From: Candidatus Spongiihabitans sp. | GTDB taxonomy: Bacteria; Pseudomonadota; Gammaproteobacteria; Arenicellales; Poriferihabitantaceae | Direction: 5' to 3' | Length of the DNA stretch: 64,000 bases | Assembly: GCA_965206355.1 (NCBI GenBank) | Contig: OZ242212.1 | Coordinates: 2,096,271 to 2,160,270, forward strand | Shown here: one piece after another, positions 11,432 through 62,948 of the stretch | Numbering within the stretch: position 1 is the first letter of the stretch | Layout: every line of letters starts with the position of its first letter | Translations under genes and position numbers: made by a program | Notes under the pieces: model-generated | The model's input: only the letters and a program-made list of their open reading frames with translations | What the model was told of the DNA's origin: nothing | Databases searched by the model: none

Positions 11432-11649
11432 TGCGACTCATCGTCCATGTGGCAACGAGGATGGTGCCAGTCATACCGATAATGGTGAGAATTTCAGGCA
11501 AAATGGGTGTTTGCAGATTGGACAGGGGTTGCAGTATAGCGTATTTCGCCGTTCAGGATGCCTATTTTCTGCGCCTGTTTTTAGCGCGCTACTTGCGACA
11601 GGCTTCTCTGAGCGGCGGGCCCAGCGAATTACGCTATCCCGCCTTGTCT

Positions 11650-14966: not shown

Positions 14967-15514
14967 GGTGTTTCCCCGGTGTAATCGCGGATGTAGTCGG
15001 GGATGTCGTTTAATGACACCGACTTGAGCAACTCGTTATCGGCGATGACCCAACCGATGGCTAACACCTGTTGAGGCCATAATCGACGTAAACACTCGCG
15101 TGCCCGCGCCATAGTCGGCACACTGCCTTCCAGCATAAAAAACACCAATTGGTTGCCATTATCCTCATAAACACGACGGGCATAATCAACAAAAGCACTG
15201 CCCGCCACACATATCTCAGTCGGGTTGATGCTGACACCGGTTTCAATAATACGCAACTCGTCAGGAAAGGTGATTACCACATAACCGCTGCCACCATCAA
15301 GGCGTTCAATACGGTGCAGACCTTCTTCACTACCACGTTCCAGACGTTCGCGTTGTGCCGCATCGGAATATAAATTGACCACCACCAGAAACACCAACAG
15401 CAAGCCGAATACACCACCGAAAATGGCCATCATTGGCGTGTTATTCTCTTCTTGCAGAGCATCCCCAGAAGCACGTCCAGACACGCTGCGTCCGGGCAGG
15501 ATACGTCTAGGCAT
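14963..15514 (-). CDS. 183-aa single-pass membrane protein (no family recognised)
   Basis: One TM (MMAIFGGVFGLLLVFLVVVNLY) followed by a soluble domain; lies between the MotA/ExbB-like gene and the 582-aa gene. Confidence 0.6.
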   Translation of the reverse strand: MPRRILPGRSVSGRASGDALQEENNTPMMAIFGGVFGLLLVFLVVVNLYSDAAQRERLERGSEEGLHRIERLDGGSGYVVITFPDELRIIETGVSINPTEICVAGSAFVDYARRVYEDNGNQLVFFMLEGSVPTMARARECLRRLWPQQVLAIGWVIADNELLKSVSLNDIPDYIRDYTGETP

Positions 15515-15554
15515 CGGGTTTAAGCATCAGGTTGAGGCATATCGGCTCTGGGCA

Positions 15555-16619: not shown

Positions 16620-16931
16620 GAGTAATCTCGAAGTGTTGATATGAATTTATGGACAAGGCAGATTATGCCATTGATGGCAATCAATGCCAAAAGTACACGC
16701 TATCTGCTATGCGCTATGAGCTTCACAGACACTGCTAGCAGAGGTGCCAGCACAATATCCCACACCGCCGCTGACAACAAGCAACGCTTGCACCGACTGA
16801 ATTTTACCTTGTTATGCCGATTAGGGGATACCCTGTTTTAAGGATATATTTTAAGAAACTTCGTGTTCGGCTTGCAATGACGACGTAATTGAGAAAATGA
16901 GGGGTGGGTATGAAGGGCGGCATACAAACCA

Positions 16932-19652
16932 CTAAAAACGCCGTTCAAAAGCAACACGCAGGAACGGACGGGTGGGATTTGCGCTGTGGTGTTGCCGATG
17001 GCGTTCCATGCCGATACGGGTTTCCAGTGTGCCTCCAGCGATGGGCAAATGATATATGGCTTCGACATCCAGCGCACGACCGCTTGGTGCCAAATTAACC
17101 GTATGGTTTTTATAGACAACTTCACGATATTTTGTGCGCCCGACTGGCACACGCAACTTCGCATGACCACGTTCCGCACGCAGTGGTTGCGACAGGCGCA
17201 GACTCAGCCAGTCATCGTGTCGCCATATTGAAGCACGCGTAGCAGCCATGCTGAACGCGCTACTGACGATAGTACTTGCCTCGTGCAATAAAGCAACGTC
17301 AAGGTCGTCAATCTGCGGTCGTGTGCGCCCGAGGTATGCCGATGTCAGCAAACGCCAGTTATCATTTCCCGCCAGTGTCCATGCACCGTTGATGCCCGCA
17401 AATGTGGTCGCCGCATTGGCTTTACCGAATACACCTTTCGGTCGTACACCAAGAAAACCATCGCCCTCGCGCACCGCACCCGCCTGCAACGACAACCCGT
17501 TGCCCCGCAAACGCGCACTGTCCGTGGTAATGCTCAGCAAGACACCAAAACCACGTTCGCCACCTGCTTTTTGCTGATTATCAAACTGTGGTGCGCCGTG
17601 CATCAGTGCAAAGCCAAAACGTTTATGACTGCCACTCGCCCCACTCACCAAGGAGCGCGACCAGCCCACCGTCGGCCCATCACGTACCAAAGACAAATAT
17701 GGTGCAATGAATGCCAACGAGTTATCAACATAAGCGGCTGTGCTTCGGCCCAATCTACCCGACTCTTGCACCGTCTGTCCCGTAGAGGAGCTTACCGAGC
17801 TTGCCGATAAGGGGGGAGATAAACGCGGGTCAAATGACCCGTTATACCATGCAGGCAACGCGCCGCCATGCTGTCCGTAGGAAAACCACCAGCCGTCTGC
17901 AAAAGCAAGCCGTGCATCGCTTATCGCACCACTACTATCTACCGTCAGCGACAAATTTATGTGGTCGCTCATAGTGCTATCAATCTGGCGGAATTGCGCA
18001 TAATTTTGCACGTCTTGTTTATCGAACGATAGCGACAGTTTACGCACACCACGCTCAACGCTTATTTCCTGCGTTGGGCGTACCCAGCTCGCCGCGGATT
18101 GAAAAAATGGCGCACCGAGCGCATCAAAACCAGCAATTTCCATATCCGCCAACGCCTCTGGCAAGGACGCGCCAAACGCCCCGCCGGACAAGGAGATACC
18201 ACTACCGGCAAAGACACGGCTATTGGGGTCGCCGGGCAGGCCGGTCATCATCACGCCGACCGGTGCGGTGGCGGCATCGAGATCCACGAGGCCGTGGCCG
18301 TAGATGTTGGAGTTGGCGTAGATGCTTTCCCGGTTGGCAGTGGCGAGCAGGCGGTCGACTAATTCGTGGTTGCCGAGTTGTCGGCGAAAGTATTGGCGCA
18401 GCAGGGCGAGAGAGCCGCTGACCAGTGGCGCGGCGAAAGAGGTGCCGCCGCCAGCACTACGATATCCGCTGTCATCAATGCTGGAAGCGGCCACAAGGTC
18501 ACTGCCCGGTGCCGCGAAGCAGAACGCCTTGGCGATGCCGCAGTGGTTTGAGTAACTGGCAATCGTGCCGTCCTGGTCCAACGCCACCACAGCGAGGACG
18601 TGGCTTTGCAATTCCGGAAAATACGCACCCATGCCGGCGAATACGTTTGGCGAGTCCTTCCGTGCCGGGCTGCCGTTTGGCAAGCGTTGGCTACCGTTGT
18701 TACCGGCTGACATTACGATGATGGTCTTGTCTGCAGGGGCGACGCCAGCCTGCGCAAGCGTAGCGGCAGAACGCGAAAGTTGGCGTCGCACGGCGGTGCG
18801 GTCGTAGCTTGAAATCACGCCCGACACGCCGAAACTGAAGTTCAACACCGAGGCATCGTTGGCAACGGCGTCGGCGATGAAACCACCAAACCATTGCGGC
18901 CCGGCATAAAACTCGTCGTTCAAGTTGCTTAAGGCGGCCGGCCTATATATTCCGTCTGAGGTGCCCAACCGGATTTCTTTGACATGCAGGGTGGCGTCAA
19001 ACGCCACGCCGTGCATCCCCCGTCCGTCTCTACGCCCGACAGCCAACGCAGAGACCGCCGTGCCGTGGAATTTTTCCGCATCGGTCGGCATATAACCGCT
19101 GTCGGTCGTTTTGGTGACGGTTTTGCCGATGAACTCGTTGTGCGTGTCGCGGATGCCGGTGTCCACCACCATCAATTTTTGCCCGGTACCAGTGGCGCCG
19201 CGCGCGTAGGCAGCCGCAGCGTTAATTCTGGCCAGGTGCGTGTCGGTGCCAAATCCCGAGGGATAAGGGGCATTGTATTCCGAGTTTTCAAAAGAGCGCT
19301 GGCGGGCGGCAAAACCAGCATCGTCGGGGGTGTTGAGCACCGTGGCGGTCGGCGCGGAGCGAGGGGAGGACAGTAGTATAGGTGGCGCGGGTTTCGTGCT
19401 GCCGCCACCACCGCCGCAAGCGGTCAGCAGGAACAGAGTTAGTGCGCCCAGTAGAACAAGTTTAGCTTCGCCAGATACTCTATGTCGGGGGGGGATAGTT
19501 GCAAATCGAACATTGTCAAACCTTGTGGAAATTGCGATTGTAGCAGGTAATACGGTATTTTTTATTGCTTCTTCCCCATTGGTTATTTGACATGGAAAGA
19601 GTGTAATATGCTTGTTCCTGCGCTTCTCAAAGCAACGGCTCAACCAGCGCAT
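16932..19652 (-). CDS. subtilisin-family (S8) serine protease, lipoprotein autotransporter
   Basis: Triad motifs VVDTGI (Asp), HGTAVS (His), GGTSFAAPLVSG (Ser); lipobox LLTAC; C-terminal beta-barrel-like region ending RVAFERRF. The annotated start overlaps tlpA. The better SD-ATG at 19513 is out of frame with the G8 tract as sequenced. Confidence 0.85.
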   Translation of the reverse strand: MRWLSRCFEKRRNKHITLFPCQITNGEEAIKNTVLPATIAISTRFDNVRFATIPPRHRVSGEAKLVLLGALTLFLLTACGGGGGSTKPAPPILLSSPRSAPTATVLNTPDDAGFAARQRSFENSEYNAPYPSGFGTDTHLARINAAAAYARGATGTGQKLMVVDTGIRDTHNEFIGKTVTKTTDSGYMPTDAEKFHGTAVSALAVGRRDGRGMHGVAFDATLHVKEIRLGTSDGIYRPAALSNLNDEFYAGPQWFGGFIADAVANDASVLNFSFGVSGVISSYDRTAVRRQLSRSAATLAQAGVAPADKTIIVMSAGNNGSQRLPNGSPARKDSPNVFAGMGAYFPELQSHVLAVVALDQDGTIASYSNHCGIAKAFCFAAPGSDLVAASSIDDSGYRSAGGGTSFAAPLVSGSLALLRQYFRRQLGNHELVDRLLATANRESIYANSNIYGHGLVDLDAATAPVGVMMTGLPGDPNSRVFAGSGISLSGGAFGASLPEALADMEIAGFDALGAPFFQSAASWVRPTQEISVERGVRKLSLSFDKQDVQNYAQFRQIDSTMSDHINLSLTVDSSGAISDARLAFADGWWFSYGQHGGALPAWYNGSFDPRLSPPLSASSVSSSTGQTVQESGRLGRSTAAYVDNSLAFIAPYLSLVRDGPTVGWSRSLVSGASGSHKRFGFALMHGAPQFDNQQKAGGERGFGVLLSITTDSARLRGNGLSLQAGAVREGDGFLGVRPKGVFGKANAATTFAGINGAWTLAGNDNWRLLTSAYLGRTRPQIDDLDVALLHEASTIVSSAFSMAATRASIWRHDDWLSLRLSQPLRAERGHAKLRVPVGRTKYREVVYKNHTVNLAPSGRALDVEAIYHLPIAGGTLETRIGMERHRQHHSANPTRPFLRVAFERRF
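19487..19494. repeat. homopolymeric G8 (C8 on coding strand) tract in the 5-prime region of the S8 autotransporter
   Basis: Eight consecutive G counted at 19487-19494, translated as IPPR in the current frame. Confidence 0.95.
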
Positions 19653-20139
19653 TTAATTCCTGCTCCGAGATAATACCCAGTTTTGTTTGCACCAGTGTGC
19701 CGTTACGGTCAAAAATAGCCGTAAACGGTAATGCGCCCGCCAGCTTATTGCCGTGGCTGGCGAGTAACGCGGCGGCATCAGCAACAACCCATAAGGAGGG
19801 ATAGGTGATACCAACTTCATCACCAAACTGGCGTGTCGCTGTCAGCACATCATGCGCTATCCCTACCACCTGCACGCCTTTGGCTTGCATGGTTTGCTGG
19901 TATGCTATGAGCATCGGTATTTCTTTCCGACAGGGCGCACACCAGCTCGCCCAATGATTGACCACCACCACCTTGCCTAGCCATTCCTCGCCTTTTCTTA
20001 GCTTTTTGTTGACATCGGGTAATTGCAGTTCCTGCAAAGTGGATTGGGAACGCTCTGAAGCAAACTGTTGTATGCTGAAATAACCGCCTATAAGGGCGCT
20101 TATCAGAGCAAGCAGGGCAATGGATACAAGTTTTTTCAT
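19627..20139 (-). CDS. periplasmic thiol:disulfide oxidoreductase, TlpA/ResA/DsbE family
   Basis: Signal anchor plus thioredoxin motif WASWCAPCRKE. Confidence 0.85.
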   Translation of the reverse strand: MKKLVSIALLALISALIGGYFSIQQFASERSQSTLQELQLPDVNKKLRKGEEWLGKVVVVNHWASWCAPCRKEIPMLIAYQQTMQAKGVQVVGIAHDVLTATRQFGDEVGITYPSLWVVADAAALLASHGNKLAGALPFTAIFDRNGTLVQTKLGIISEQELNALVEPLL

Positions 20140-20150
20140 TATTTTTCATT

Positions 20151-20289
20151 GAGACCTTTGCACGGAAGATGATTTCGCTTTCAGGCAAGGCAAAAACGCA
20201 CGGAATGAGGGAGTTTATGCTTATAAATGACCGATTGAGTACGATTTTAACGCAGCATGCAGGTGAAATGGCTTTCGTGCAAAGGTCTC
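20151..20289 (+). mobile_element. MITE copy 3 (139 bp)
   Basis: Canonical termini; 5-bp TSD TCATT on both sides; left end is 11 nt upstream of the tlpA ATG. Confidence 0.95.
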
Positions 20290-20732: not shown

Positions 20733-20871
20733 GAGACCTTTGCACGGAAGATGATTTCGCTTTCAGGCAAGGCAAAAACGCACGGAATGAGGGAGTTTAT
20801 GCTTATAAATGACCGATTGAGTACGATTTTAACGCAGTATGCAGGTGAAATGGCTTTCGTGCAAAGGTCTC
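20733..20871 (+). mobile_element. MITE copy 4 (139 bp)
   Basis: Canonical termini; 5-bp TSD TTAAC. Confidence 0.95.
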
Positions 20872-20911
20872 TTAACAATTGGGGCTCCTTTTATGCGACA
20901 TTCCGACCCGC

Positions 20912-23996: not shown

Positions 23997-24132
23997 TTGG
24001 TAGCCGCTTCCGCAAAACCATTTTTTGCCAATGACCTGTTTGCCCCTACCCGCTCCTATCAAGCAGATATGACTGATATTATTTTGGGGCTGTCTCTGTC
24101 CATCCCTATCAATATCTTTGGCAATTCATTAT

Positions 24133-24271
24133 GAGACCTTTGTACGAAAGCCATTTCACCTGCATACTGCGTTAAAATCGTACTCAATCGGTCATTTATA
24201 AGCATAAACTCCCTCATTGCGTGCGTTTTTGCCTGGCCTGAAAGCGAAATCATCTTCCGTACAAAGGTCTC
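24133..24271 (-). mobile_element. MITE copy 5 (139 bp)
   Basis: Canonical termini (one T substitution). Flanks CATTAT / ATAATG extend the inverted repeat instead of forming a direct TSD; 10 bp from the tRNA-Pro 3-prime end. Confidence 0.9.
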
Positions 24272-24281: not shown

Positions 24282-24358
24282 TGGTCGGGGTGAGAGGATT
24301 CGAACCTCCGGCCCCTGCCTCCCGAAGGCAGTACTCTACCCGGCTGAGCTACACCCCG
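24282..24358 (-). tRNA. tRNA-Pro (anticodon CGG)
   Basis: Reverse complement CGGGGTGTAGCTCAGCCGGGTAGAGTACTGCCTTCGGGAGGCAGGGGCCGGAGGTTCGAATCCTCTCACCCCGACCA. Has a 7-bp acceptor stem, anticodon loop TTCGGGA, T-loop GGTTCGAATCC and encoded CCA. Confidence 0.93.
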
Positions 24359-32772: not shown

Positions 32773-33198
32773 GGTTTAGCGCCTTACCCACAGGGCACAA
32801 ACACCTCCGCAAATCCCTCTATATGCCCGCGTTGATGGCAGTGCGGTACAATCCATTGATGCAGAATTTATACAATGAGACCTTTGCATGAAAGCCATTT
32901 TACCTGCATGCTGTGTCGCCTAAAAGCACCTACTGTTGGTAAAAATCGTACTCAATCGGTCATTTATAAGCATAAACTCCCTCATTCCGTGCGTTTTTGC
33001 CTTGCCTAAAAGCGAAATCATCTTCCGTGCAAAGGTCTCTAGTTATATCCTATGGGATATTGACCTATGGGGTATTGAAATCACAACAACCTTTTGATGT
33101 CAATTATGCGTGCAGATAGAGCGATTGCAGCGCAGGCTACAATTTTGCTTGCGAAGGCTATCCTGAATGCCCCATTCCTTATAGTCATCACGCCCTAT
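32773..33198 (+). pseudogene. IS110-family transposase C-terminal remnant (frameshifted, split by MITE copy 6)
   Basis: GLAPYPQ then, in another frame, HLRKSLYMPALMAVRYNPLMQNLYN, cut by the MITE at 32877. After the MITE comes a weak RAIAAQATILLAKAILNA tail; resembles the conserved IS110 C-terminus. Confidence 0.45.
32877..33039 (-). mobile_element. MITE copy 6 (163-bp long variant)
   Basis: Canonical termini plus about 23-bp internal insertion; no TSD (flanks ACAAT / TAGTT). Confidence 0.9.
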
Positions 33199-33337
33199 GA
33201 GACCTTTGCACGAAAGCCATTTCACCTGCATGCTGCGTTAAAATCGTACTCAATCGGTCACTTATAAGCATAAACTCCCTCATTCCGTGCGTTTTTGCCT
33301 TGCCTAAAAGCGAAATCATCTTCCGTGCAAAGGTCTC
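33199..33337 (-). mobile_element. MITE copy 7 (139 bp)
   Basis: Canonical termini; 5-bp TSD CCTAT. Confidence 0.95.
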
Positions 33338-33344
33338 CCTATGA

Positions 33345-49193: not shown

Positions 49194-49295
49194 TGCCGAA
49201 GGAATTTATGTTGAACATACTTGGATGCCTCCTGTTCAGTTGCGTCTTGTAGCATCCCTAAGAGATCGCTCCAAATCATTGTCTTTTAATTCATA

Positions 49296-49434
49296 GAGAC
49301 CTTTGCACGGAAGATGATTTTGCTTTCAGGTAAGGCAAAAACGCACGGAATGAGGGAGTTTATGCTTATAAATGACCGATTGAGTACGTTTTTAACGTAG
49401 CATGCAGGTGAAATGGCTTTCGTGCAAAGGTCTC
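49296..49434 (+). mobile_element. MITE copy 8 (139 bp)
   Basis: Canonical termini; 5-bp TSD TCATA. Confidence 0.95.
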
Positions 49435-49631: not shown

Positions 49632-50107
49632 TTATTCTTTGAGGCCTTTGCACGGAAGATGATTTCGCTTTTAGGCAAGGCAAAAACGCACGGAATGAGG
49701 GAGTTTATGCTTATAAATGACCGATTGAGTACGATTTTAACGCAGCATGCAGGTGAAATGGCTTTCGTGCAAAGCTCTCTCTTTAATTCTGAAAGTTCCA
49801 TCGTGTTGTTCTTCAATATTCAGATAATTGAAAAATGATTCATCAGTAAACTCTGAATGGGTATCAAAATATTTTGTATGTATTGGTAATGCTTCAATGT
49901 CTGATCGAAGCGCTTTGTGGGTTTCAAATATTGACTTGAATAGCCAGTTAATCACCTTGCTGTTCAGTATCTGACTAAGTTGCCTTACACTAATCGGAAA
50001 ATCATCTTCCAATATCAGCATATTGGCACTGTTCAAGAAAAACATCTGCTCGGTATCATGGTAGAAAACCAAGTCTGATGAAATAAATCTATAAACCAAT
50101 TTTTCTT
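49632..50107 (-). pseudogene. C-terminal fragment of an N6-adenine DNA methyltransferase (TaqI_C-like target-recognition region)
   Basis: KLVYRFISSDLVFYHDTEQMFFLNSANMLIL...LSQILNSKVINWLFKS...LRSDIEALPI. The 5-prime side abuts the IS1595 left end at 50108; MITE copy 9 is inserted 1 codon before the original TAA (49632-49634). Confidence 0.65.
49641..49779 (+). mobile_element. MITE copy 9 (139 bp, variant termini GAGGCC/GCTCTC)
   Basis: 5-bp TSD TCTTT. Confidence 0.93.
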
Positions 50108-50825
50108 GGGGCTGTCCTAGATAACACTGAAAGAGTGCTATCATGGGATCAATGAGAAAGAGTCGTTTAAGCCGTTATAAACAAGGTCGTCTTATCGAGC
50201 ATTTTGTGTCGGGTTCAACCGCCCGCACGGCAGCGTTGCTGGTTGGGATCAACAAGTCCACATCGGCGTATTTTTATCACCGGTTGCGCGAGATTATCGC
50301 ATATGAGCTTGAACAAGAAAGTCATGAGGTTTTTGACGGGGAGATTGAAGTCGATGAAAGTTATTTTGGCGGTGGTCGCAAAGGCAAACGAGGTCGGGGA
50401 GCGGCGGGGAAAATCCCGGTGTTTGGCTTACTCAAACGGGGCGGGAGGGTTTACACCAAGATTATCCCGGATGCCTGTTCAGCAACCTTGATGCCAATTA
50501 TTGAGCGTAAAGTGGTTCCGGACAGCATCGTTTATTCCGACTGTTGGAGCGGTTATAATGTGCTGGACGTGAGCGATTTCAAGCACCACCGCATCAACCA
50601 TTCCCAACGCTTCGCGGAGCAGGGGAATCACATCAACGGCATTGAGAACTTTTGGAGTCAGGCGAAGCGTCATATGCACAAATTCAACGGTGTTCCCAAG
50701 GCGCATTTTGGGCTGTTTTTGAAGGAGTGCGAGTGGCGTTTTAACAACAGCGACCCAATATCTCAATTATTTCAATTAAAACAATGGGTTGGAGTTCATT
50801 TAAACTAGTTATCTAGGACAGCCCC
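50108..50825 (+). mobile_element. IS1595-family insertion sequence, copy 1 (718 bp)
   Basis: 18-bp terminal inverted repeats GGGGCTGTCCTAGATAAC / GTTATCTAGGACAGCCCC enclosing a single 221-aa transposase ORF. Confidence 0.9.
50143..50808 (+). CDS. IS1595-family (IS1016-like) transposase
   Basis: 221 aa; ...VDESYFGG..KGKRGRGAAGKIPVFGLL.RGG.VYT..I...YSD.W.GY......H..INH pattern typical of ISXO2/IS1016-group DDE transposases. Confidence 0.85.
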   Translation: MGSMRKSRLSRYKQGRLIEHFVSGSTARTAALLVGINKSTSAYFYHRLREIIAYELEQESHEVFDGEIEVDESYFGGGRKGKRGRGAAGKIPVFGLLKRGGRVYTKIIPDACSATLMPIIERKVVPDSIVYSDCWSGYNVLDVSDFKHHRINHSQRFAEQGNHINGIENFWSQAKRHMHKFNGVPKAHFGLFLKECEWRFNNSDPISQLFQLKQWVGVHLN

Positions 50826-50863
50826 AATCGTAATTCGTAAAAAAGCACAAGATATGCCATTAA

Positions 50864-51025
50864 GAGACCTTTGCACGGAAGATGATTTCGCTTTCAGGCA
50901 AGGCAAAAACGCACGGAATGAGGGAGTTTATGCTTATAAATGACCGATTGAGACCAATTTTACCAACAGTAGGCGCTTTTAGGCGACGCAGCATGCAGGT
51001 GAAATGGCTTTCGTGCAAAGCTCTC
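50864..51025 (+). mobile_element. MITE copy 10 (162-bp long variant)
   Basis: 5-bp TSD ATTAA; right terminus variant GCTCTC. Confidence 0.95.
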
Positions 51026-51141
51026 ATTAAAACATCGGTCTCAACAGACAGTAGCAGATAATCCATTGCCGTTATTGACTACACGTTCAATAACAAGTGT
51101 TCTTTTTCCCATGCACTGACCACGTTTAAGGATAGTTTTCC

Positions 51142-51168
51142 GTTTGCTTGGTTTGCTTGGTTTGCTTG
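51142..51168. repeat. 9-bp tandem repeat GTTTGCTTG x3
   Basis: Read directly; about 200 bp upstream of the FAD oxidoreductase start. Confidence 0.9.
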
Positions 51169-51366
51169 GTGGGCGTTATTGGACATTGGCTTGTGTTGAA
51201 TGGTGTATTGGTGGGTGTCTTGTCTTCGATACTGTCTTGGAAAGAGCCCAATCAGCTTGTATTATACGAGCTGGCGGTGTTGAAAAACCCTCACCCGGCC
51301 TAAAAATTTCGTGTCCTGTTTGTCCATTAGTTCATGCTACATTTTTCACGCTATATCTTTAATGCC

Positions 51367-52671
51367 ATGTTTGAAAATGACGATAAACCAATAACATCCT
51401 ATTACCAACATACGGCTAACGGTCAAATTGATGCACCACAATTACAACAGCATATCAAAGCAGATGTGGTTGTTATTGGCGGTGGCTTGAGCGGTTGTTC
51501 CACTGCCTTGCATCTGGCATCAAGTGGCGTGGATGTGGCAGTGCTTGAGTCGCGTCAGTTTGGATGGGGTGCCTCCGGGCGCAGTGGCGGGCAAATTATC
51601 AATGGCTTCTCGATCAGTCAAGATGTCTTGGAAAAACAGCTCGGTATGGAACATGCCAAACAGCTTTGGCAACACTCGGTATATGCGGTGGACTATACCC
51701 GACAGTTAATCAAAACCCACAATATAGATTGCGATCTGACTATGGGCTATTTACATGTGGGGGTAAAACCACGTCATGCCAAAGCGTTACGATGCTGGGT
51801 CGAGCAGTTGTCCAGGACCTACGACTACACGTCGATGCAATACCACAATCAAAACCAGTTGACGGAGTTTCTTGCTTCTGAGCGCTATCAGGGTGGTGTA
51901 TCCGATTCGGGTAGTGGTCATCTACATCCGCTGAATTATTGTTTGGGTATTGCCAAAGCGGCTGAGGATGCGGGCGCAAGATTGTGGCAGCACTCCGCCG
52001 TGGTTAAAGTGGCAACAACGGCGACTGGCAAAGTCGTTGATGTCGTTAATCAAGATGGTGGCAACGGCAAAATAAATTGTCAGCATGTGGTTTATGCTTG
52101 CAATGCCTATCTCAATAAACTGGCACCGAAAATCGGCAATAAAATAATGCCAGTGGGAACCTATATGGTCGCGACAGAACCGTTGCAAGAAGACCTTGCC
52201 TTAGGCTTGATTTCCAACCGCGCCGCAGTTGCCGATAACAATTTTGTGTTGGACTATTATCGTTTATCCGCCGACAACCGTATGTTGTTTGGTGGGCGGG
52301 TCAGCTACTCAACATTACAACCCCGAAAACTTACCCACTCATTGCGTCACCGCATGCTCAGCGTGTTCCCGCAATTACAGGGCGTGAACATTGATTTTTC
52401 ATGGGGCGGTTATGTGGCGATTACCCGAAACCGTGCGCCCGATATTGGGCAGATGGATGACGGCAGTTGGTTTGCGCAAGGCTATTCCGGGCATGGTATG
52501 GCATTGAGCGGATACATCGGAAAATTACTTGCTCAGGCGATTTTGGGCGATCGGGAAGGGATGGCTTGTTTTGAAAAAATACCGCACAAAACCTTCGTGG
52601 GTGGCAAGATTTTGCGTATGCCAGCACTGGTGGCAGCGATGAGTTATTATAAATTGAAAGATTATTTTTAG
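51367..52671 (+). CDS. FAD-dependent oxidoreductase (DAO family, gamma-glutamylputrescine oxidase-like)
   Basis: Dinucleotide-binding VVVIGGGLSGCSTALHLA..G..V.VLE; about 434 aa from ATG 51367 (ORF open from 51334). Confidence 0.75.
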   Translation: MFENDDKPITSYYQHTANGQIDAPQLQQHIKADVVVIGGGLSGCSTALHLASSGVDVAVLESRQFGWGASGRSGGQIINGFSISQDVLEKQLGMEHAKQLWQHSVYAVDYTRQLIKTHNIDCDLTMGYLHVGVKPRHAKALRCWVEQLSRTYDYTSMQYHNQNQLTEFLASERYQGGVSDSGSGHLHPLNYCLGIAKAAEDAGARLWQHSAVVKVATTATGKVVDVVNQDGGNGKINCQHVVYACNAYLNKLAPKIGNKIMPVGTYMVATEPLQEDLALGLISNRAAVADNNFVLDYYRLSADNRMLFGGRVSYSTLQPRKLTHSLRHRMLSVFPQLQGVNIDFSWGGYVAITRNRAPDIGQMDDGSWFAQGYSGHGMALSGYIGKLLAQAILGDREGMACFEKIPHKTFVGGKILRMPALVAAMSYYKLKDYF

Positions 52672-52673
52672 AT

Positions 52674-52812
52674 GAGACCTTTGCACGGAAGATGGTTTCG
52701 CTTTCAGGCAAGGCAAAAACGCACGGAATGAGGGAGTTTATGCTTATAAATGACCGATTGAGTACGTTTTTAACACAGCATGCAGGTGAAACGGCTTTCG
52801 TGCAAAGGTCTC
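52674..52812 (+). mobile_element. MITE copy 11 (139 bp)
   Basis: 5-bp TSD TAGAT; the left TSD copy contains the stop codon of the preceding gene. Confidence 0.95.
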
Positions 52813-52863
52813 TAGATGTCACCGTTGTCCATAAACAAAGCATTCATAAATAAAGCACAGGCT

Positions 52864-53796
52864 ATGTCAGCGCAGGTAAGACTCCAGATCGTTGAGCGCG
52901 AGGAAGATGGGCAGCGGGTTGATAATTTTTTGATAAAAACGCTGAAAGGAGTACCCAAGAGTAGAATCTATAAAGCGGTGCGTAGTGGGGAAGTGCGGGT
53001 CAATGGCTCGAGAATAAAGGTGTCGCATAAGCTGAAGTCCGGAGATAAAGTACGCATACCACCAATTCGCCATGCCCAAACCAACCAGCCAGCGGTGATT
53101 CCCCCGAATCTGCTACAGCATATTCCAGTGCTTTTTGAGGATCAGCATTTACTGCTGGTTGACAAACCAGCGGGGCTGGCAGTACATGGTGGTACGGGTA
53201 TGTCATATGGATTGATTGAAGCGTTCCGGCAACTGCGACCGCACATTCAGTTTCTTGAACTGATACATCGCCTGGATCGGGAAACTTCAGGATGCCTGAT
53301 GTTGGCGAAGAGCAGACAAGCGTTGCTGGCAGTGCAGCAACAACTCGGTGAGGACAGAACGGTGGGCAAATATTATCTGGCATTGGTGCAAGGTGTGTGG
53401 AAGGGAGGAAGCAAAACGGTTAATTTATCTCTTGCCAGAAAGCGCGAAGCAGGCAAGGATAAACGCTCGGTGGTTGATGGCAATGGTCAGCAGGCGAGCA
53501 GTAAAATTTCTCTGCTAACACGTTATCATGACAGTAGCTTGGTAGAGATTGAACTCAAAACCGGCAGAATGCATCAGGCACGGGTGCATTGCTCCGCCAG
53601 CGGTTATCCTATAGCCGGCGATTACTTATATGGTGAAAGTGCGTTTAATCAGAAAATGAAAAAAGCCGGTCTTGGGCGACTATTTCTGCATTCCCACAAG
53701 CTCACAATACGCCATCCCCTGACCAACACCCCGCTGCATCTGCAAGCGCCATTGCCAGCACGCTTGCTGAGATTGCTTGATAAATTAGCGTGCTGA
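52864..53796 (+). CDS. rluC: 23S rRNA pseudouridine synthase RluC
   Basis: S4 domain (GQRVDNFL...GVPKSRIYKAVRSGEVRVNG) plus HRLDRETSGCLMLAKS catalytic motif; start taken at ATG 52864. Confidence 0.85.
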   Translation: MSAQVRLQIVEREEDGQRVDNFLIKTLKGVPKSRIYKAVRSGEVRVNGSRIKVSHKLKSGDKVRIPPIRHAQTNQPAVIPPNLLQHIPVLFEDQHLLLVDKPAGLAVHGGTGMSYGLIEAFRQLRPHIQFLELIHRLDRETSGCLMLAKSRQALLAVQQQLGEDRTVGKYYLALVQGVWKGGSKTVNLSLARKREAGKDKRSVVDGNGQQASSKISLLTRYHDSSLVEIELKTGRMHQARVHCSASGYPIAGDYLYGESAFNQKMKKAGLGRLFLHSHKLTIRHPLTNTPLHLQAPLPARLLRLLDKLAC

Positions 53797-53944
53797 AATG
53801 AAATAGAGTTGGTTCATCACCGCTGTCTGTGTTAAGGTGTTCGCCTTGTATGGCGTATGTTTTATGAGTAGGTTGGGTAGCAACTGCTGGAAAACGCCGG
53901 AAAAACAATCTGCAGAATCATTGACTTAACCGAGTATAAGAAAA

Positions 53945-55786
53945 ATGCCTGATTACCGATCGTGGACAACAACCCGTGGCAGGACAATGGCAGGGGCGCG
54001 TGCTTTGTGGCGTGCTACGGGTATGACAGAAGATGATTTCAATAAACCCATCATTGCCGTTGCTAATTCATTTACCCAATTTGTGCCCGGACATGTGCAC
54101 TTAAAAGATATGGGGCAACTGGTTGCCCGCGAGATTGAAGCGGTGGGTGGTGTTGCCAAAGAATTTAATACCATTGCCGTTGATGATGGCATTGCTATGG
54201 GACATGGCGGTATGTTGTATTCATTGCCGTCACGGGAAATCATCGCCGATTCGGTGGAATATATGGTCAATGCACATTGTGCTGATGCGCTGGTGTGTAT
54301 TTCTAATTGCGACAAAATTACTCCGGGTATGTTAATGGCAACTATGCGGCTTAACATTCCGGCTATTTTTGTCTCGGGCGGACCTATGGAAGCGGGTAAG
54401 GTGACTTGGCGTGAGCACGAAAAATCGGTGGATTTGGTCGATGCGATGATGGTGGCAGCCGATGATAATGTGAGCGATCTGGAATCTGAAAATATGGAGC
54501 GTTCTGCCTGCCCAACCTGTGGTTCCTGTTCGGGTATGTTTACCGCAAATTCGATGAATTGTTTGACAGAGGCTCTCGGACTTGCTCTGCCCGGGAACGG
54601 CACGCTTGTTGCTACGCATAGTGATCGTGAACAATTATTTCTCGAAGCCGGCAGGTGCATCGTTACCACTACCCGGCGACACTACGAGCAGGATGATTAC
54701 GATGTATTGCCGCGAGCCATCGCTAACTTTGATGCTTTTGAAAATGCAATGTCGCTGGATATTGCGATGGGTGGATCGACCAATACGGTGTTGCACCTGC
54801 TTGCTGCCGCACATGAGGGTAGCATCGCCTTCAGCATGAAAGACATTGATCGCTTGAGTCGTCAGGTACCCAACCTGTGCAAAGTAGCTCCAGCTTCACC
54901 AGACTATCACGTTGAGGATGTGCATCGTGCTGGTGGTGTTATGGCGATACTGGGTGAGCTGGATCGTGCCGGCTTGATAAATGGTCATGCCAAAACTGTC
55001 CATGCTGACAGTATTGGACAAGCGATTGCGCTTTGGGATATTTGCCTGACTGATGACCAGAAACGAAAAGATTTTTTCCGTTCGGCTCCCGGCGGTGTGC
55101 CGACACAGGTGGCGTTCAGTCAAAGCAAACGCTATAAATCTTTGGATATGGATCGGAAAAATGGATGTATTCGTGATCGTGATCACGCCTATAGTCAAGA
55201 CGGTGGGTTGGCTGTTCTGTTTGGTAATCTTGCCGAAGAGGGTTGTATCGTCAAAACTGCCGGAGTCGATGAAAGCATTCTCAAGTTTACCGGTAAAGCC
55301 AGAGTATTTGAGAGTCAAGAAGCTGCCGTTGATGGCATTCTCGGCAATACAATCAAGCCGGGAGATGTGGTGGTGATTCGCTACGAGGGTCCCAGAGGCG
55401 GACCGGGGATGCAGGAAATGCTTTATCCGACCACTTACCTCAAGTCAAAAGGTCTCGGCAAAGTCTGTGCCCTGATTACCGATGGGCGATTTTCTGGAGG
55501 CACTTCCGGACTATCCATTGGTCACGTTTCACCCGAAGCTGCAGAGGGCGGGCTGATTGCATTGATAGAGGAAAATGATGTCATTGAAATAGATATTCCC
55601 AATCGAACTATCCATCTTGCGCTTGCGCCGACAGAGTTGGCGCAACGCCGAAGCGACATGGATGCAAAAGGCGAAGCGGCATGGCAACCCCAGCGTGAGC
55701 GAGTCGTTAGCACGGCACTCAAGGCATACGCACACTTCAGTAGCAGTGCTGCTAAGGGGGCAGTCAGAGATGTTAATCAGCTATAA
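53945..55786 (+). CDS. ilvD: dihydroxy-acid dehydratase
   Basis: [40 protein letters not shown], 613 aa. Confidence 0.95.
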
Positions 55787-55859
55787 GCGGCAACTATAAA
55801 CGGAGTCAGTTTGGGTTAGTAGCTACCACTAAAGCAGATATGTACACATAAGGTTAAAA

Positions 55860-56874
55860 ATGGGTCAACACTCATTATTTGATCATGTTGAAAGGACGTA
55901 TTTGTCGATAGATGATGTGGCAAATCAGCTTGAAGTATCGACTGCATCAGTTAGAAACTGGGTTAAAACTGGCTATCTTCGGCAAACAAATCGCAGTTTG
56001 ATTTCGAAAGAATCTTTTGAGCATTTCAAAAATAACGTGGCTGGTAATGAAAAACTAACAGCCCGGGCGAACAAGTCATTAAAGGACTCCCATGACCATG
56101 AAAAACTACAGAAGGAATTTTATGCTTTGATGAAAGGAAATGGAATTGACTTTGAGCAGACAGGATTACGATACCAAGCATCCCTGTCCAACGCATACAG
56201 AAATAAACAGGGTATATACTATACGCCGACAAATATTACCGAGCGATTCTTCCAGCATTTACCGGATAATTGCTCCGGCTTATCTTTTTGTGATCCTTGT
56301 TGCGGATCTGGAAACTTTATCCTGTCCGCCATAGAGTGCGGCATGAAACCTGAGAATATTTATGGTTATGATGTAGATCCGATTGCCGTAGAGCTGACAA
56401 AAAGAAGAATGCTGGAACGCACTGGATACCAAACAGATAAAATTATCTGTGCTGATTTTCTACAATCAATATTAGAACATGGTTGCATTTGTTTTGATAT
56501 TATTTTTACTAATCCACCATGGGGCAAGAAACTCAACCGAGAACAAAAAGAAATGTACGCTCGTGTATTCGATGCGGGCAACAGTGTGGATACGAGTTCA
56601 TTATTCTTTTTTGGATGCTTGTCGATATTAAAAGAGGACGGATATATAGGGTTCTTATTGCCAGGTGCTTTTTTTAATGTGGCTTCTTTTGAATATGCAC
56701 GTAAAAAAGCATTATCACTAAATATCAAGGCATTAATGGATTTTGGCAAACCGTTTAAGGGATTGCTAACAAAAGCAAAAGGTATTGTTATTCAAAAACA
56801 GGCGGTTGGCGATGAAAATCCTGTTCAGTGTAGGGTAAGGCTTCAATCCATGATTAGGTCGCAAAATTCATTTA
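55860..56874 (+). pseudogene. N-terminal two-thirds of an HTH-fused gamma-class N6-adenine DNA methyltransferase, truncated by IS1595 copy 2
   Basis: HTH-like YLSIDDVANQLEVSTASVRNWVKTGYL; YYTP, motif I DPCCGSGNF, motif IV FTNPPWG; reading frame runs into the IS end at 56875. Confidence 0.75.
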
Positions 56875-57592
56875 GGGGCTGTCCTAGATAACTAGTTTAA
56901 ATGAACTCCAACCCATTGTTTTAATTGAAATAATTGAGATATTGGGTCGCTGTTGTTAAAACGCCACTCGCACTCCTTCAAAAACAGCCCAAAATGCGCC
57001 TTGGGAACACCGTTGAATTTGTGCATATGACGCTTCGCCTGACTCCAAAAGTTCTCAATGCCGTTGATGTGATTCCCCTGCTCCGCGAAGCGTTGGGAAT
57101 GGTTGATGCGGTGGTGCTTGAAATCGCTCACGTCCAGCACATTATAACCGCTCCAACAGTCGGAATAAACGATGCTGTCCGGAACCACTTTACGCTCAAT
57201 AATTGGCATCAAGGTTGCTGAACAGGCATCCGGGATAATCTTGGTGTAAACCCTCCCGCCCCGTTTGAGTAAGCCAAACACCGGGATTTTCCCCGCCGCT
57301 CCCCGACCTCGTTTGCCTTTGCGACCACCGCCAAAATAACTTTCATCGACTTCAATCTCCCCGTCAAAAACCTCATGGCTTTCTTGTTCAAGCTCATATG
57401 CGATAATCTCGCGCAACCGGTGATAAAAATACGCCGATGTGGACTTGTTGATCCCAACCAGCAACGCTGCCGTGCGGGCGGTTGAACCCGACACAAAATG
57501 CTCGATAAGACGACCTTGTTTATAACGGCTTAAACGACTCTTTCTCATTGATCCCATGATAGCACTCTTTCAGTGTTATCTAGGACAGCCCC
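56875..57592 (-). mobile_element. IS1595-family insertion sequence, copy 2 (718 bp, inverted relative to copy 1)
   Basis: Same 18-bp TIRs; transposase protein identical to copy 1 (one synonymous difference, AGT vs AGC). Confidence 0.9.
56892..57557 (-). CDS. IS1595-family transposase
   Basis: 221 aa, identical to the 50143..50808 product. Confidence 0.85.
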   Translation of the reverse strand: MGSMRKSRLSRYKQGRLIEHFVSGSTARTAALLVGINKSTSAYFYHRLREIIAYELEQESHEVFDGEIEVDESYFGGGRKGKRGRGAAGKIPVFGLLKRGGRVYTKIIPDACSATLMPIIERKVVPDSIVYSDCWSGYNVLDVSDFKHHRINHSQRFAEQGNHINGIENFWSQAKRHMHKFNGVPKAHFGLFLKECEWRFNNSDPISQLFQLKQWVGVHLN

Positions 57593-59613
57593 TTACGATT
57601 TTGAGTTTTAATGGTTGTTTTAGCGGTGTCTCTTGTACTTTTCTTTATGGTGCTTTTCTTGATGGCAGTTTTCTTAGCGATTTTCTTGCTGGTTTTCTTG
57701 CCGGTTCTGCTGTCGCTTTTCTTGATGGTTTGGCTGGGGCTCGGTTTTTCCGTGCTGCCAGCTACTTTTTTACTAACTCTTTTACTGACTTTTTTGCTGG
57801 TTTTTTTCGTAACCGTCTTTTTCAACTCACTGCCTGATGGCTTGTCTGCCGTTTTCTTATCTTCGAGGGTTTTACATTCCAGAAAAATTCTGTTTTCACA
57901 GGTACGGCAAATATCCCGATCCAAATAACTAAAGACCGTGCTAATGGCTTCTTCTTTGGAATCAAATATATTATCTTCGCCGATAAAATCTAGATAACCC
58001 CCATCTTTTAGCACTTGACTGGCACTATCTTTTAGTCGATACATATACAGATTACCACCCATCTTTCTTCTTTCGCGGGCTTCAGCAGTTAATAGTTCTG
58101 CGCCACCAACATCAACTTGATTGACCCCTTTGGTCAGCAACAACAGGTGCTTCTGTTGCGGGTAATGTTCTCGATACAAGCGAAACATTTCACCAACATG
58201 CGCTACTGATCCAAAATAGATTGAATCATCCAACCGCAACATCTTTAGCTGCGGACACTCAAGTAACGGTCCTCCAGAACCGAATTTCCGATGTTTTGAA
58301 TCGGGATTGGGAACCCGTGAAATAATTCTCGGGCGGGAGGTTTTTCTGAGATAGATGAGCAATGACAAGATAACGCCGAACAGAATGGCGAATTCGAGCT
58401 TGAAGAAAATGGTGCTCAAGAAAGTAACTGCCATGATCGCCGCCTCTTTTCTGTCGGCACTGAAAATCTTCCTGATTTGCACAAAATCAATGATATCCCA
58501 AGCAACCAGAATCAACAAACCTGCTACCGCCGCTGTCGGTAAATAGGCGATGAGTGGTGCGACCAGCATAAGCAGGGGTATTAGTAACAGACCCGCAAAA
58601 ACTGCCGCTAATGGCGACCTTGCACCCGCTTCATAATTTGCCCCACTACGGTTAAACGAACCAGTCGCCACGTAGGCAGAGAAGAAACTGCCAGCAATAT
58701 TCGACAATCCCTGACCCAGAAATTCTTGATTGCCATGAACGGTCTGTCCGCTTTTAAGCGCAATGGCACGAGAGATAGAAACCGCTTCGGTTAGGGCAAA
58801 CAGGGTCATAGCCAGTGCCAACGGTGCCAGTTCTTGAAACGCATTCGCTGAAAAATTCGGCATTGATAATGGGGGTAATTGTCGAGGCAATGCACCAACC
58901 ATCTGAATACCCGTGTTATCACTGCCGAGTATCAAATTACACATCGCTGCCACCACACTACTAACAACCAGAGCAACAATCATTCCCGGAAATTTTGGCC
59001 ATTTTTTCTTGAGTACAACAACCACAAGCAAAGACGAAAACCCGACCAGTGTGACTAGCGGATGAAACGCGCTCCAATGCGTCCATAGGTACAGCACCGT
59101 CTCATATAAATGCTCTCTGGCAGGAATTTCCAGACCAAGAAAAACTTTACTTTGCTTGGTAGCAATCAACAGTGCTGCTCCGGAAGTAAAGCCGACAATG
59201 ACTGAATGCGATATAAAATTGACCAGTGCGCCGAGCCTGATTGCCCCCATGACAAGCTGGGTAACGCCAACCATAAATGCCAACGTGATGGCAAGAGAAA
59301 CATATTCCGAACTGCCGGGTTCTGCCAATACACTCAATGACGAGAACATAACAATTGACGCCGCCGTGGTCGGACCCGAAACCAGATGCCAAGAAGAACC
59401 AAATAGTGCGGCAATAATAGCAGGCACGATACTTGCATACAGCCCATATTCAGGGGGCATTCCGGCAATGCTGGCGAATGCCACTCCTTGTGGTAAAACG
59501 ATAGCCGCACCGGTCAACCCTGCCAGCAAATCGGCACGCATAGTCTCCTTATCAAGGTGCTGCCCCCAGCGCAGGAACGGAAAAAATTTGCTAACGGAGA
59601 AATTAAAAAACAC
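57580..59613 (-). CDS. SulP-family anion permease with STAS domain and lysine-rich C-terminal tail
   Basis: Sulfate-transporter TM core, STAS region (LLLLTKGVNQVDVGGAELL), then about 95 aa rich in K/T/S. The last 3 codons and the stop come from the IS end. Confidence 0.85.
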   Translation of the reverse strand: MFFNFSVSKFFPFLRWGQHLDKETMRADLLAGLTGAAIVLPQGVAFASIAGMPPEYGLYASIVPAIIAALFGSSWHLVSGPTTAASIVMFSSLSVLAEPGSSEYVSLAITLAFMVGVTQLVMGAIRLGALVNFISHSVIVGFTSGAALLIATKQSKVFLGLEIPAREHLYETVLYLWTHWSAFHPLVTLVGFSSLLVVVVLKKKWPKFPGMIVALVVSSVVAAMCNLILGSDNTGIQMVGALPRQLPPLSMPNFSANAFQELAPLALAMTLFALTEAVSISRAIALKSGQTVHGNQEFLGQGLSNIAGSFFSAYVATGSFNRSGANYEAGARSPLAAVFAGLLLIPLLMLVAPLIAYLPTAAVAGLLILVAWDIIDFVQIRKIFSADRKEAAIMAVTFLSTIFFKLEFAILFGVILSLLIYLRKTSRPRIISRVPNPDSKHRKFGSGGPLLECPQLKMLRLDDSIYFGSVAHVGEMFRLYREHYPQQKHLLLLTKGVNQVDVGGAELLTAEARERRKMGGNLYMYRLKDSASQVLKDGGYLDFIGEDNIFDSKEEAISTVFSYLDRDICRTCENRIFLECKTLEDKKTADKPSGSELKKTVTKKTSKKVSKRVSKKVAGSTEKPSPSQTIKKSDSRTGKKTSKKIAKKTAIKKSTIKKSTRDTAKTTIKTQNRKGLS

Positions 59614-62745: not shown

Positions 62746-62907
62746 GAGACCTTTGCACGGAAGATGATTTCGCTTTTAGGCCGGGCAAAAACGCACGGAA
62801 TGAGGGAGTTTATGCTTGTAAATGACCGAGTGAGACCATTTTTACCAACAGTAGGCGCTTTTAGGCGACGTAGCATGCAGGTGAAATGGCTTTCGTGCAA
62901 AGGTCTC
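62746..62907 (+). mobile_element. MITE copy 12 (162-bp long variant)
   Basis: Canonical termini; flanked by AGTATA/AGTATA; 41 nt upstream of ORF start 62949. Confidence 0.95.
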
Positions 62908-62948
62908 AGTATAATTTGATAACATACACCGTACACTAACCAAGTTAT

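What the first reader, a model, noticed from the sequence alone, without database searches (positions are those of the whole stretch)
50108..57600. Inversion of about 6 kb between two inverted IS1595 copies, proven by a split and inverted 8-bp target duplication
IS copy 1 (50108-50825, +) and copy 2 (56875-57592, -) are near-identical. The 8 bp after copy 1 (AATCGTAA, 50826-50833) is the exact reverse complement of the 8 bp after copy 2 (TTACGATT, 57593-57600). In IS-relative orientation, the right flank of copy 1 equals the left flank of copy 2. That is the signature of one ancestral insertion whose ends now sit on different copies after homologous recombination between inverted repeats. Independent support comes from the methyltransferase gene. 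Its N-terminal part ends at copy 2 (56874, + strand) and its C-terminal part starts at copy 1 (50107, - strand). Flipping 50826-56874 puts both on the minus strand as N-part, IS, C-part. The inversion reorients ilvD, rluC and the FAD oxidoreductase. Before inversion, the insertion carrying the TTACGATT duplication sat in the last codons of the SulP gene (original end ...TQNRNS*).
Basis: seen in the sequence. Interest (0 to 1): 0.6.

Follow-up and report, generated by a model that had tools for sequence, protein, structure and literature searches.

The report
Six-kilobase inversion between two insertion sequences
Two nearly identical copies of a small mobile element sit in opposite orientation around a 6-kb block of housekeeping genes that has been flipped relative to related bacteria; this is a real but ordinary kind of genome rearrangement, and the sequence cannot say which of two or three known mechanisms did the flipping.

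Summary
Two 718-bp IS1595-family copies lie at 50108-50825 (+) and 56875-57592 (-). They are 717/718 identical and have perfect 18-bp terminal inverted repeats. The 8 bp right of copy 1 (AATCGTAA) is the exact reverse complement of the 8 bp beyond copy 2 (TTACGATT).

Three lines show that the block 50826-56874 (FAD oxidoreductase, rluC, ilvD, methyltransferase N-part) is inverted:
- The closest relative found keeps SulP>FADox>rluC>ilvD on one strand.
- Another relative keeps ilvD next to TauE-dnaE.
- Four-fold-site GC skew changes sign only in this block.

- The methyltransferase halves do not rejoin cleanly. About 97 codons (~291 bp) are missing at the IS, and there is no target duplication there.
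- The split, inverted 8-mer does not prove homologous recombination. One-step intramolecular replicative transposition, or an inside-out event from two direct copies, gives the same end product.

I slightly favour recombination between two pre-existing copies (about 0.5) over replicative transposition (about 0.33). IS-bounded inversions are a well-known kind of event, so interest is low.

The parts
50108..50825 (+). IS copy 1: 718-bp IS1595-family insertion sequence with 18-bp perfect terminal inverted repeats (GGGGCTGTCCTAGATAAC)
50143..50808 (+). Transposase gene of copy 1 (221 aa)
   Evidence: Pfam PF12762 E=2.5e-31; NCBIfam NF033547, 172 bits against a cutoff of 75
56875..57592 (-). IS copy 2: 717/718 identical to copy 1, in inverted orientation
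56892..57557 (-). Transposase gene of copy 2; protein identical to that of copy 1
50826..50833 (.). AATCGTAA: half of the 8-bp target duplication, abutting the right end of copy 1
57593..57600 (.). TTACGATT: the other half of the duplication, abutting the left end of copy 2; exact reverse complement of 50826-50833
50826..56874 (.). The inverted segment (6049 bp): MITE-like repeat, FAD oxidoreductase, MITE-like repeat, rluC, ilvD, methyltransferase N-part
   Evidence: Gene order in relatives L083/L084 and L085; four-fold-site GC skew +0.055 pooled against -0.127 outside
51334..52671 (+). FAD-dependent (DAO-family) oxidoreductase, inside the inverted block
   Evidence: 74% aa identity to the orthologue in L083
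52816..53796 (+). RluC-like pseudouridine synthase, inside the inverted block
53945..55786 (+). ilvD dihydroxy-acid dehydratase, inside the inverted block
55860..56874 (+). N-terminal 338 codons of an N6-adenine DNA methyltransferase pseudogene (HTH, N6_Mtase/Eco57I, NPPW motif); ends at the right end of IS copy 2
49737..50107 (-). C-terminal part of the same methyltransferase (TaqI_C profile positions 40-118); starts at the left end of IS copy 1. About 97 codons between the two parts are missing
57580..59613 (-). SulP-family permease; the IS insertion replaced its last two codons (NS*) with KGLS* read from the IS end
50322..50322 (.). The only difference between the two IS copies (T here; the partner base at 57378 corresponds to C); synonymous in the transposase

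Best explanation
A real and evolutionarily recent inversion of 50826-56874, bounded by two inverted copies of a 718-bp IS1595-family element.

Shown: the earlier order was dnaE(+) pabB(+) TauE(+) | methyltransferase(-) ilvD(-) rluC(-) FADox(-) SulP(-) | aminotransferase(+).

Inferred history:
1. One IS copy sat in the orphan methyltransferase gene, where about 291 bp next to it were lost.
2. A second copy inserted in inverted orientation into the last codons of SulP, making the 8-bp duplication TTACGATT.
3. RecA-type homologous recombination between the two 718-bp inverted repeats flipped the DNA between them. This left one half of the duplication on each copy and put the two methyltransferase halves on opposite strands.

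Every IS-end/flank junction is unchanged by the flip. The local consequence is therefore only the orientation of FADox, rluC and ilvD relative to the chromosome. The SulP tail and the dead methyltransferase are the same in either orientation.

The inversion itself I hold at about 0.9. The confidence below is for the last step being homologous recombination.
For: - IS anatomy and the split 8-mer.
- This IS makes 8-bp direct duplications on simple insertion: ATAACTTA on both sides in L088, and 7/8 in L001.
- The closest relative found (ilvD 91% aa identical) has unk306(-) AT3(-) SulP(+) FADox(+) rluC(+) ilvD(+), the order obtained by un-flipping the window.
- A Candidatus Spongiihabitans genome has ilvD(+) followed by TauE(-) and dnaE(-), which is the other pre-inversion junction. 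Neither present-day junction was seen in any of the five distinct relative arrangements examined.
- Four-fold-site GC skew on the + strand is negative in 27 of 29 genes outside the block, whatever their strand (mean -0.154). Inside the block the mean is +0.08. Fisher p=5e-4, Mann-Whitney p=0.005, and it is the top-ranking contiguous four-gene window.
- For recombination specifically: IS1016 (same family) bounds inverted segments in gonococcal genomes (PMC9778887). The one experimentally studied close relative, ISEc69, gave simple insertions with 8-bp AT-rich duplications in a recA- host, with no cointegrates mentioned (PMC7835479).
Against: - The end product is identical to that of one-step intramolecular replicative transposition, so nothing in the window singles out recombination.
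- The second flank pair (TTTTTCTT / TAAATGAA) does not show the reciprocal split duplication that a clean two-insertion-plus-recombination history predicts. An extra ~291-bp deletion ending exactly at the IS terminus has to be added.
- A terminus-precise deletion is itself typical of elements that do intramolecular strand transfer.
- The history needs four events, against three for the rivals.
- No sister strain with an un-inverted, IS-carrying SulP site was found.
Confidence: 0.5

Rival explanations
1. One-step intramolecular replicative transposition in trans (as for IS26, IS1 and Tn3). A single IS resident in the methyltransferase gene attacked the TTACGATT site 6 kb away on the opposite strand. 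In one event, replication produced the second, inverted IS copy, inverted the DNA between, and duplicated the 8-bp target in inverted orientation. The ~291-bp loss in the methyltransferase gene would be a separate cis (deletion) event by the same chemistry.
For: [quoted passage not shown] - The copies differ by 1 of 718 bases and lie only 6 kb apart.
- The deletion in the methyltransferase gene ends exactly at an intact IS terminus with no duplication. This is the classic adjacent-deletion product of the same pathway.
- It needs three events rather than four.
- IS1, the family discussed as related to IS1595 (Siguier et al. 2009, cited), transposes replicatively within the chromosome (PMC12428005).
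- Five of ten complete elements with both flanks that carry this 18-bp end, in fetched contigs, lack a recognisable duplication.
Against: - I found no experimental evidence of replicative or cointegrate transposition for any IS1595-family member.
- ISEc69 gave simple insertions with direct 8-bp duplications in a recA- host.
- One base differs between the copies, so they are not strictly identical.
- Recombination between IS copies is the commoner cause of such inversions in general (established knowledge).
Confidence: 0.33
2. Inside-out conservative transposition. Two directly repeated IS copies had inserted about 291 bp apart in the methyltransferase gene. Their inner ends were cut, discarding the 291-bp piece, and attacked TTACGATT 6 kb away. 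A single cut-and-paste event then gave both the inversion with an inverted target duplication and the loss of the 291 bp, as in Tn10 deletion/inversions.
For: - My derivation from the end-joining geometry reproduces all four observed flanks and the missing ~97 codons in one step.
- It is compatible with a non-replicative transposase, as the ISEc69 results suggest.
- Directly repeated IS1595-family copies do act together as a composite element (Tn7052).
Against: - It needs two earlier independent insertions within about 300 bp in the same orientation.
- There is no trace of such an intermediate.
- This pathway has not been documented for the family.
Confidence: 0.06
3. Assembly artefact or mixed population. 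The true or majority genome has the un-flipped order, and the assembler threaded the 6-kb segment the wrong way through the 718-bp inverted repeats.
For: - A wrong threading through inverted repeats would give exactly the observed split duplication, split gene and skew discontinuity.
- The junctions between IS ends and flanks are the same in both orientations, so only reads spanning a whole IS can decide.
Against: - The source is a single 2,363,323-bp contig.
- Sister contigs from this data family have long-read-style names and are closed circles.
- Reads of several kb span a 718-bp repeat easily. This is inference; no reads were available.
Confidence: 0.06
4. The present orientation is ancestral, and the relatives are the rearranged ones.
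For: Gene order around ilvD is very fluid in this clade. Three relatives have ilvD next to the nuo operon instead.
Against: - Two different relatives each preserve a different one of the two predicted pre-inversion junctions.
- Only un-flipping restores a direct 8-bp duplication, one methyltransferase gene on one strand, and the local GC-skew sign.
Confidence: 0.02

Closest known systems
IS1016-bounded chromosomal inversions in Neisseria gonorrhoeae (IS1595 family, IS1016 group)
   Same: Same IS family. Copies sit at both ends of inverted chromosomal fragments and are read as substrates for rearrangement (PMC9778887).
   Different: - Different host: here an uncultured relative of Candidatus Spongiihabitans.
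- A different IS: the closest named transposase found, in the plasmid collection only, is ISEc75-like at 68.5% aa identity.
- A much smaller segment (6 kb).
- The target duplication here is preserved well enough to reconstruct the event.
IS26 / IS6-family (also IS1, Tn3) intramolecular replicative transposition in trans
   Same: Identical end product: a second copy in inverted orientation, the intervening DNA inverted, and the 8-bp target duplicated as inverted copies with one on each IS. Adjacent deletions without flanking repeats are the cis outcome (PMC7986276; an IS26 inversion example is PMC10501869, listed).
   Different: [quoted passage not shown] I found no report of replicative transposition in this family. 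The two copies differ at one base.
ISEc69 / Tn7052 (IS1595 family, mcr-2)
   Same: - Small single-ORF element: 217-aa against 221-aa transposase.
- 8-bp duplications at AT-rich targets with A/T at positions 1, 2, 7 and 8. TTACGATT, ATAACTTA and TTAAGTAT fit this.
   Different: ISEc69 was studied as a composite transposon with direct copies giving simple insertions. No inversions were reported. The central CG of TTACGATT is less AT-rich than typical ISEc69 targets.

Membership tests
IS1595-family insertion sequence | Single DDE transposase matching the IS1595 family profile | tested here: met
   Pfam PF12762 E=2.5e-31; NCBIfam NF033547, 172.3 bits against a cutoff of 75
IS1595-family insertion sequence | Short terminal inverted repeats bounding an element of about 0.7 kb (size range for the IS1016 group recalled from Siguier et al. 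2009, not re-read) | tested here: met
   718 bp with 18/18-bp inverted repeats beginning GGGGCTG. The same boundaries are seen in L001 and L088
IS1595-family insertion sequence | 8-bp direct target duplication on simple insertion, at AT-rich sites | tested here: met
   L088 ATAACTTA 8/8; L001 7/8; L152 TTAAGTAT 8/8 in a related element. Reference behaviour of ISEc69 in PMC7835479
Inversion by homologous recombination between inverted IS copies | Two near-identical copies in inverted orientation at both breakpoints | tested here: met
   717/718 identity; the breakpoints coincide with the IS ends
Inversion by homologous recombination between inverted IS copies | Both original target duplications reciprocally split between the two copies | tested here: inconclusive
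   One pair is split as expected (AATCGTAA). The other pair (TTTTTCTT / TAAATGAA) does not match, and about 291 bp are missing there
Inversion by homologous recombination between inverted IS copies | Relatives or ancestors carry the opposite orientation | tested here: met
   L083/L084 and L085 each keep one pre-inversion junction; the GC-skew discontinuity agrees
Inversion by homologous recombination between inverted IS copies | An intermediate exists with the second IS flanked by a direct duplication; the event depends on RecA | not testable with these tools
   All five window proteins looked up sit in singleton 90% clusters, and exact look-ups of ilvD and the methyltransferase ORF found no other contig. 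The empty-site search gave 0 hits
Intramolecular replicative transposition (trans pathway) | New copy inverted, intervening DNA inverted, target duplicated in inverted orientation with one half per copy | tested here: met
   definition from the PMC7986276 Fig. 6 legend
Intramolecular replicative transposition (trans pathway) | The two copies are identical when formed | tested here: inconclusive
   One synonymous difference in 718 bp. It could be a later mutation or conversion from another genomic copy; at least six other transposase variants occur on the same chromosome
Intramolecular replicative transposition (trans pathway) | The element family is known to transpose replicatively or form cointegrates | not tested
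   No such report turned up in the literature searches. ISEc69 gave simple insertions in a recA- host

The most novel reading that the evidence does not exclude
The locus records two footprints of Shapiro-type intramolecular replicative transposition by an IS1595-family element: a terminus-precise ~291-bp adjacent deletion (cis) and a 6-kb inversion with an inverted 8-bp duplication and a newly made copy (trans). This would be the first sequence-level indication that this family, whose mechanism is uncharacterised, behaves like IS1 and IS26.
Probability: 0.33. Interest if true: 0.35.

Novelty: new member of a known kind. Interest (0 to 1): 0.18.

Why it matters
It matters little beyond this genome.
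- It is a clean, reconstructible example of IS-driven gene-order change in an IS- and MITE-rich uncultured relative of sponge-associated sulfur-oxidising Gammaproteobacteria, a clade whose gene order around ilvD is already very fluid.
- The flip does not change any IS/flank junction. Its only direct effect is the orientation of FADox, rluC and ilvD relative to replication and to neighbouring transcription.
- The one point of wider interest is mechanistic. The terminus-precise deletion and the inverted duplication together are what a replicative IS would leave. If that were confirmed, it would say something new about how IS1595-family elements move.

Tried and rejected
- Exact-protein look-ups of ilvD and of the 343-aa methyltransferase ORF found no other contig. 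All five window proteins looked up (the methyltransferase ORF, the transposase, ilvD, FADox, RluC) are on record. All but the transposase form singleton 90% clusters, each seen on a single contig of 2,363,323 bp, so no sister strain is available.
It was useless for synteny, and ilvD would have been the better query.
- The context of the closest intact methyltransferase homologue (P0002) is an unrelated restriction-modification island.
- Relatives L086/L087, L209 and L210 have ilvD beside the nuo operon and say nothing about these junctions.
- DNA comparison of the reconstructed SulP-FADox junction with L083 aligns only the gene bodies. The SulP tail and the spacer are not conserved, so the empty target site could not be seen in a relative.
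- A search of metagenome contigs for the predicted empty site CTCAAAATCGTAATTCGTAAAA gave 0 hits.
- Raw sliding-window GC skew is uninformative because it follows the coding strand. The block is +0.10 to +0.14, but dnaE is also positive and SulP negative. Only the four-fold-site skew gave a usable signal.
- Using similarity between the two copies as evidence that they are sisters was rejected. The six other transposase variants (five full-length, one truncated) recorded on the source chromosome differ from this one by only 1-3 residues, so near-identity does not discriminate.
- A replication origin near the strand switch at about 30 kb was considered and dropped. There is no dnaA, only parC/gyrA-like, rseP and bamA genes.
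- Rfam found only one tRNA in the window.
Full report
**1. Observation**

Each is 718 bp.

- They are not quite identical. IS position 215 is T in copy 1 (window 50322) and C in copy 2 (window 57378). The change is synonymous in the transposase.
- Both ends carry a perfect 18-bp inverted repeat, GGGGCTGTCCTAGATAAC.
- The 221-aa ORF matches Pfam DDE_Tnp_IS1595 at E=2.5e-31. It scores 172 bits against a cutoff of 75 on NCBIfam NF033547.
- The closest named transposase found (plasmid collection only) is ISEc75-like at 68.5% identity. This looks like an unnamed member of the family.
- In IS-relative orientation the flanks are: copy 1 L=TTTTTCTT, R=AATCGTAA; copy 2 L=AATCGTAA, R=TAAATGAA.

By my estimate from base composition it has a chance probability of about 7e-5 over the four meaningful flank pairings.

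**2. Does this IS make 8-bp duplications?**

Yes. Two metagenome contigs carry the same element. In L088 it is flanked by ATAACTTA on both sides. In L001 it is flanked by TACCTTTT and TAACTTTT, a 7/8 match.

The 18-bp end is shared by a widespread group of elements of about 0.71 kb in environmental metagenomes. Of ten complete elements with both flanks in the fetched contigs, two have perfect 8-bp duplications, three have 6-7/8 matches, and five have none.

**3. Is the block really inverted?**

Three independent lines say yes.

*(a) Gene order in the closest relative.* No sister strain exists in the collections. ilvD, the FAD oxidoreductase and RluC are singletons at 90% clustering. An ilvD homologue search did lead to related closed genomes from ENA samples. 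The closest (ilvD 91% identical; L083 and L084) has this order, at 74-91% aa identity:
- unk306(-), aminotransferase(-), SulP(+), [an unrelated IS], FADox(+), rluC(+), ilvD(+).

In the window, SulP is (-), with the aminotransferase(+) and unk306(+) to its right, but FADox, rluC and ilvD are (+). The block is therefore flipped relative to SulP.

*(b) Gene order in a second relative.* A Candidatus Spongiihabitans genome (L085, ilvD 90%) has ilvD(+) followed directly by TauE(-) and dnaE(-). That is the junction predicted on the other side after un-flipping. The window has dnaE(+), pabB(+), TauE(+), and the un-flipped block would place the methyltransferase(-) and ilvD(-) next. Neither present-day junction appears in any relative examined. 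Other relatives have ilvD beside the nuo operon, so the neighbourhood is fluid.

*(c) Base composition.* Raw GC skew follows the coding strand and is uninformative. Skew at four-fold degenerate sites gives a signal:
- It is negative on the + strand in 27 of 29 genes outside the block, whichever strand they are on (mean -0.154).
- The four genes in the block average +0.08 (pooled +0.055 against -0.127).
- Fisher p=5e-4 and Mann-Whitney p=0.005.
- The block is the highest of all contiguous four-gene windows.

The effect is moderate. It is carried mainly by rluC and the methyltransferase N-part, but it has the sign expected for a recent flip.

**4.

The methyltransferase halves do belong to one gene. 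The N-part carries HTH, N6_Mtase/Eco57I and the NPPW motif. The C-part matches TaqI_C profile positions 40-118. They join in frame.

However, full-length homologues are about 545 aa. The alignment shows that 97 residues are absent exactly at the junction: the homologue stretch NKNPKS...ELFLA, lying between ...RSQNSF and KEKLVYRF....

So about 291 bp are missing. The deletion ends precisely at an intact IS terminus, and the two methyltransferase-side flanks are not a duplication. An additional event must be assumed at this site.

**5. Consequences**

- With IS2 and one 8-mer removed and the block un-flipped, SulP ends ...TQNRNS*. It now ends ...TQNRKGLS*, read from the IS end. This is a trivial change that does not depend on the orientation of the block.
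- Recombination inside the IS leaves every IS-end/flank junction as it was. The flip therefore changes only the orientation of FADox, rluC and ilvD in the chromosome.
- The methyltransferase is an orphan pseudogene in either orientation. Its 3' end also runs into a MITE-like repeat.

**6. Mechanism**

Geometry alone cannot decide. Three routes lead to the same four flanks.

| Route | Steps | For | Against |
|---|---|---|---|
| H: homologous recombination | Insertion in the methyltransferase gene; adjacent deletion; independent inverted insertion at TTACGATT; recombination between the copies | Commonest cause of IS-bounded inversions, reported for IS1016 in gonococci (PMC9778887). ISEc69 gave simple insertions with 8-bp AT-rich duplications in a recA- host (PMC7835479) | Four events; the second flank pair is not reciprocally split |
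| R: intramolecular replicative transposition in trans | Insertion; a cis event giving the adjacent deletion; a trans event giving the inversion, the new inverted copy and the inverted duplication | Matches the published description of the trans product (PMC7986276). The terminus-precise deletion is the hallmark of that chemistry. Copies are 6 kb apart and differ at one base. Three events | No replicative transposition reported for this family |
| I: inside-out cut-and-paste | Two direct copies about 291 bp apart; their inner ends attack TTACGATT | By my derivation, gives the inversion and the loss of the 291 bp in one step | Needs two nearby prior insertions in the same orientation; not documented for the family |

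I put H at about 0.5, R at about 0.33 and I at about 0.06. Mis-threading by the assembler is about 0.06, and the present order being ancestral about 0.02. That the block is inverted, and that the IS pair mediated it, I hold at about 0.9.

**7. Comparison and novelty**

The element passes every membership feature I could test for the IS1595 family. The rearrangement is a standard IS-bounded inversion. It is a new instance in a little-studied, IS- and MITE-rich symbiont-like genome, not a new kind of thing.

The only mildly novel reading is that the locus records replicative behaviour in a family whose mechanism is unknown.

**8. Verdict**

The core interpretation (an inversion, and an insertion in the SulP tail) is supported. 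The claim of proof for homologous recombination is not, and the methyltransferase reconstruction needs the 291-bp deletion added. Interest is low (0.18).

Noticed in passing
window 6512-6651, 11206-11347, 20143-20289, 20733-20874, 24130-24271, 32875-33039, 33196-33344, 49290-49434, 49641-49779, 50864-51027, 52674-52812, 62746-62908: Twelve copies of a MITE-like repeat of about 140 nt (a variant is about 165 nt), 82-99% identical, on both strands, within 64 kb. Their ends are unrelated to the IS ends. One lies 38 bp from the right end of IS copy 1, one lies between FADox and rluC, and one overruns the 3' end of the methyltransferase gene. Spurious ORFs across them repeat the same peptide (...SFISINSLIPCVFALPES...).
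   Followed up: partly
window 49737-50107 and 55860-56874; L083 12162-21839: The position downstream of ilvD looks like a landing site for defence genes. The window has an orphan, broken methyltransferase there with no restriction enzyme gene nearby. The closest relative has DarT-Macro (DarTG-like), a type I restriction-modification system and a DNA cytosine methylase at the same place.
   Followed up: no
L086 4933-6486, L209 4933-6486, L210 4933-6486: In three related genomes a 517-aa N6-adenine methyltransferase gene (N6_Mtase/Eco57I) sits inside the nuo (complex I) operon, between the genes for the 49-kDa subunit and the 2Fe-2S (NuoE-like) subunit, on the same strand.
   Followed up: no
window 11000-20000: This stretch has GC of 0.52-0.57, against about 0.45 elsewhere. 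It is bounded by MITE-like repeats at 11.2 and 20.1 kb and contains a 906-aa subtilase (16932-19652). That gene's four-fold-site GC skew is one of only two positive values outside the inverted block. It is possibly a horizontally acquired island or another rearranged piece.
   Followed up: no
window 1-64000: Four-fold-site GC skew is negative on the + strand almost throughout, which suggests the + strand is the lagging strand. Yet the conserved rseP-bamA-...-dnaE cluster (34-46.5 kb) and most genes from 30 to 57 kb are on the + strand, so they would be head-on to replication. This may point to a larger, older rearrangement, or the skew may simply be weak.
   Followed up: no
window 9839-10060: Four to five tandem copies of a 45-bp unit, 89-94% identical, partly inside the ORF at 9979-10887 (-).
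   Followed up: no
window 24285-24358: This is the only Rfam hit in the window, a tRNA on the - strand. It lies within about 15 bp of a MITE-like repeat at 24130-24271.
   Followed up: no
L001 2646-3363; L088 199-916: Two short linear contigs from ENA sample ERZ25069296, at about 730x coverage, carry this same IS at other sites: next to argH in L001, and beside unknown genes in L088. L088's transposase variant (P0122) is not recorded on the 2.36-Mb chromosome, which suggests the IS insertions are polymorphic in the sampled population.
   Followed up: partly
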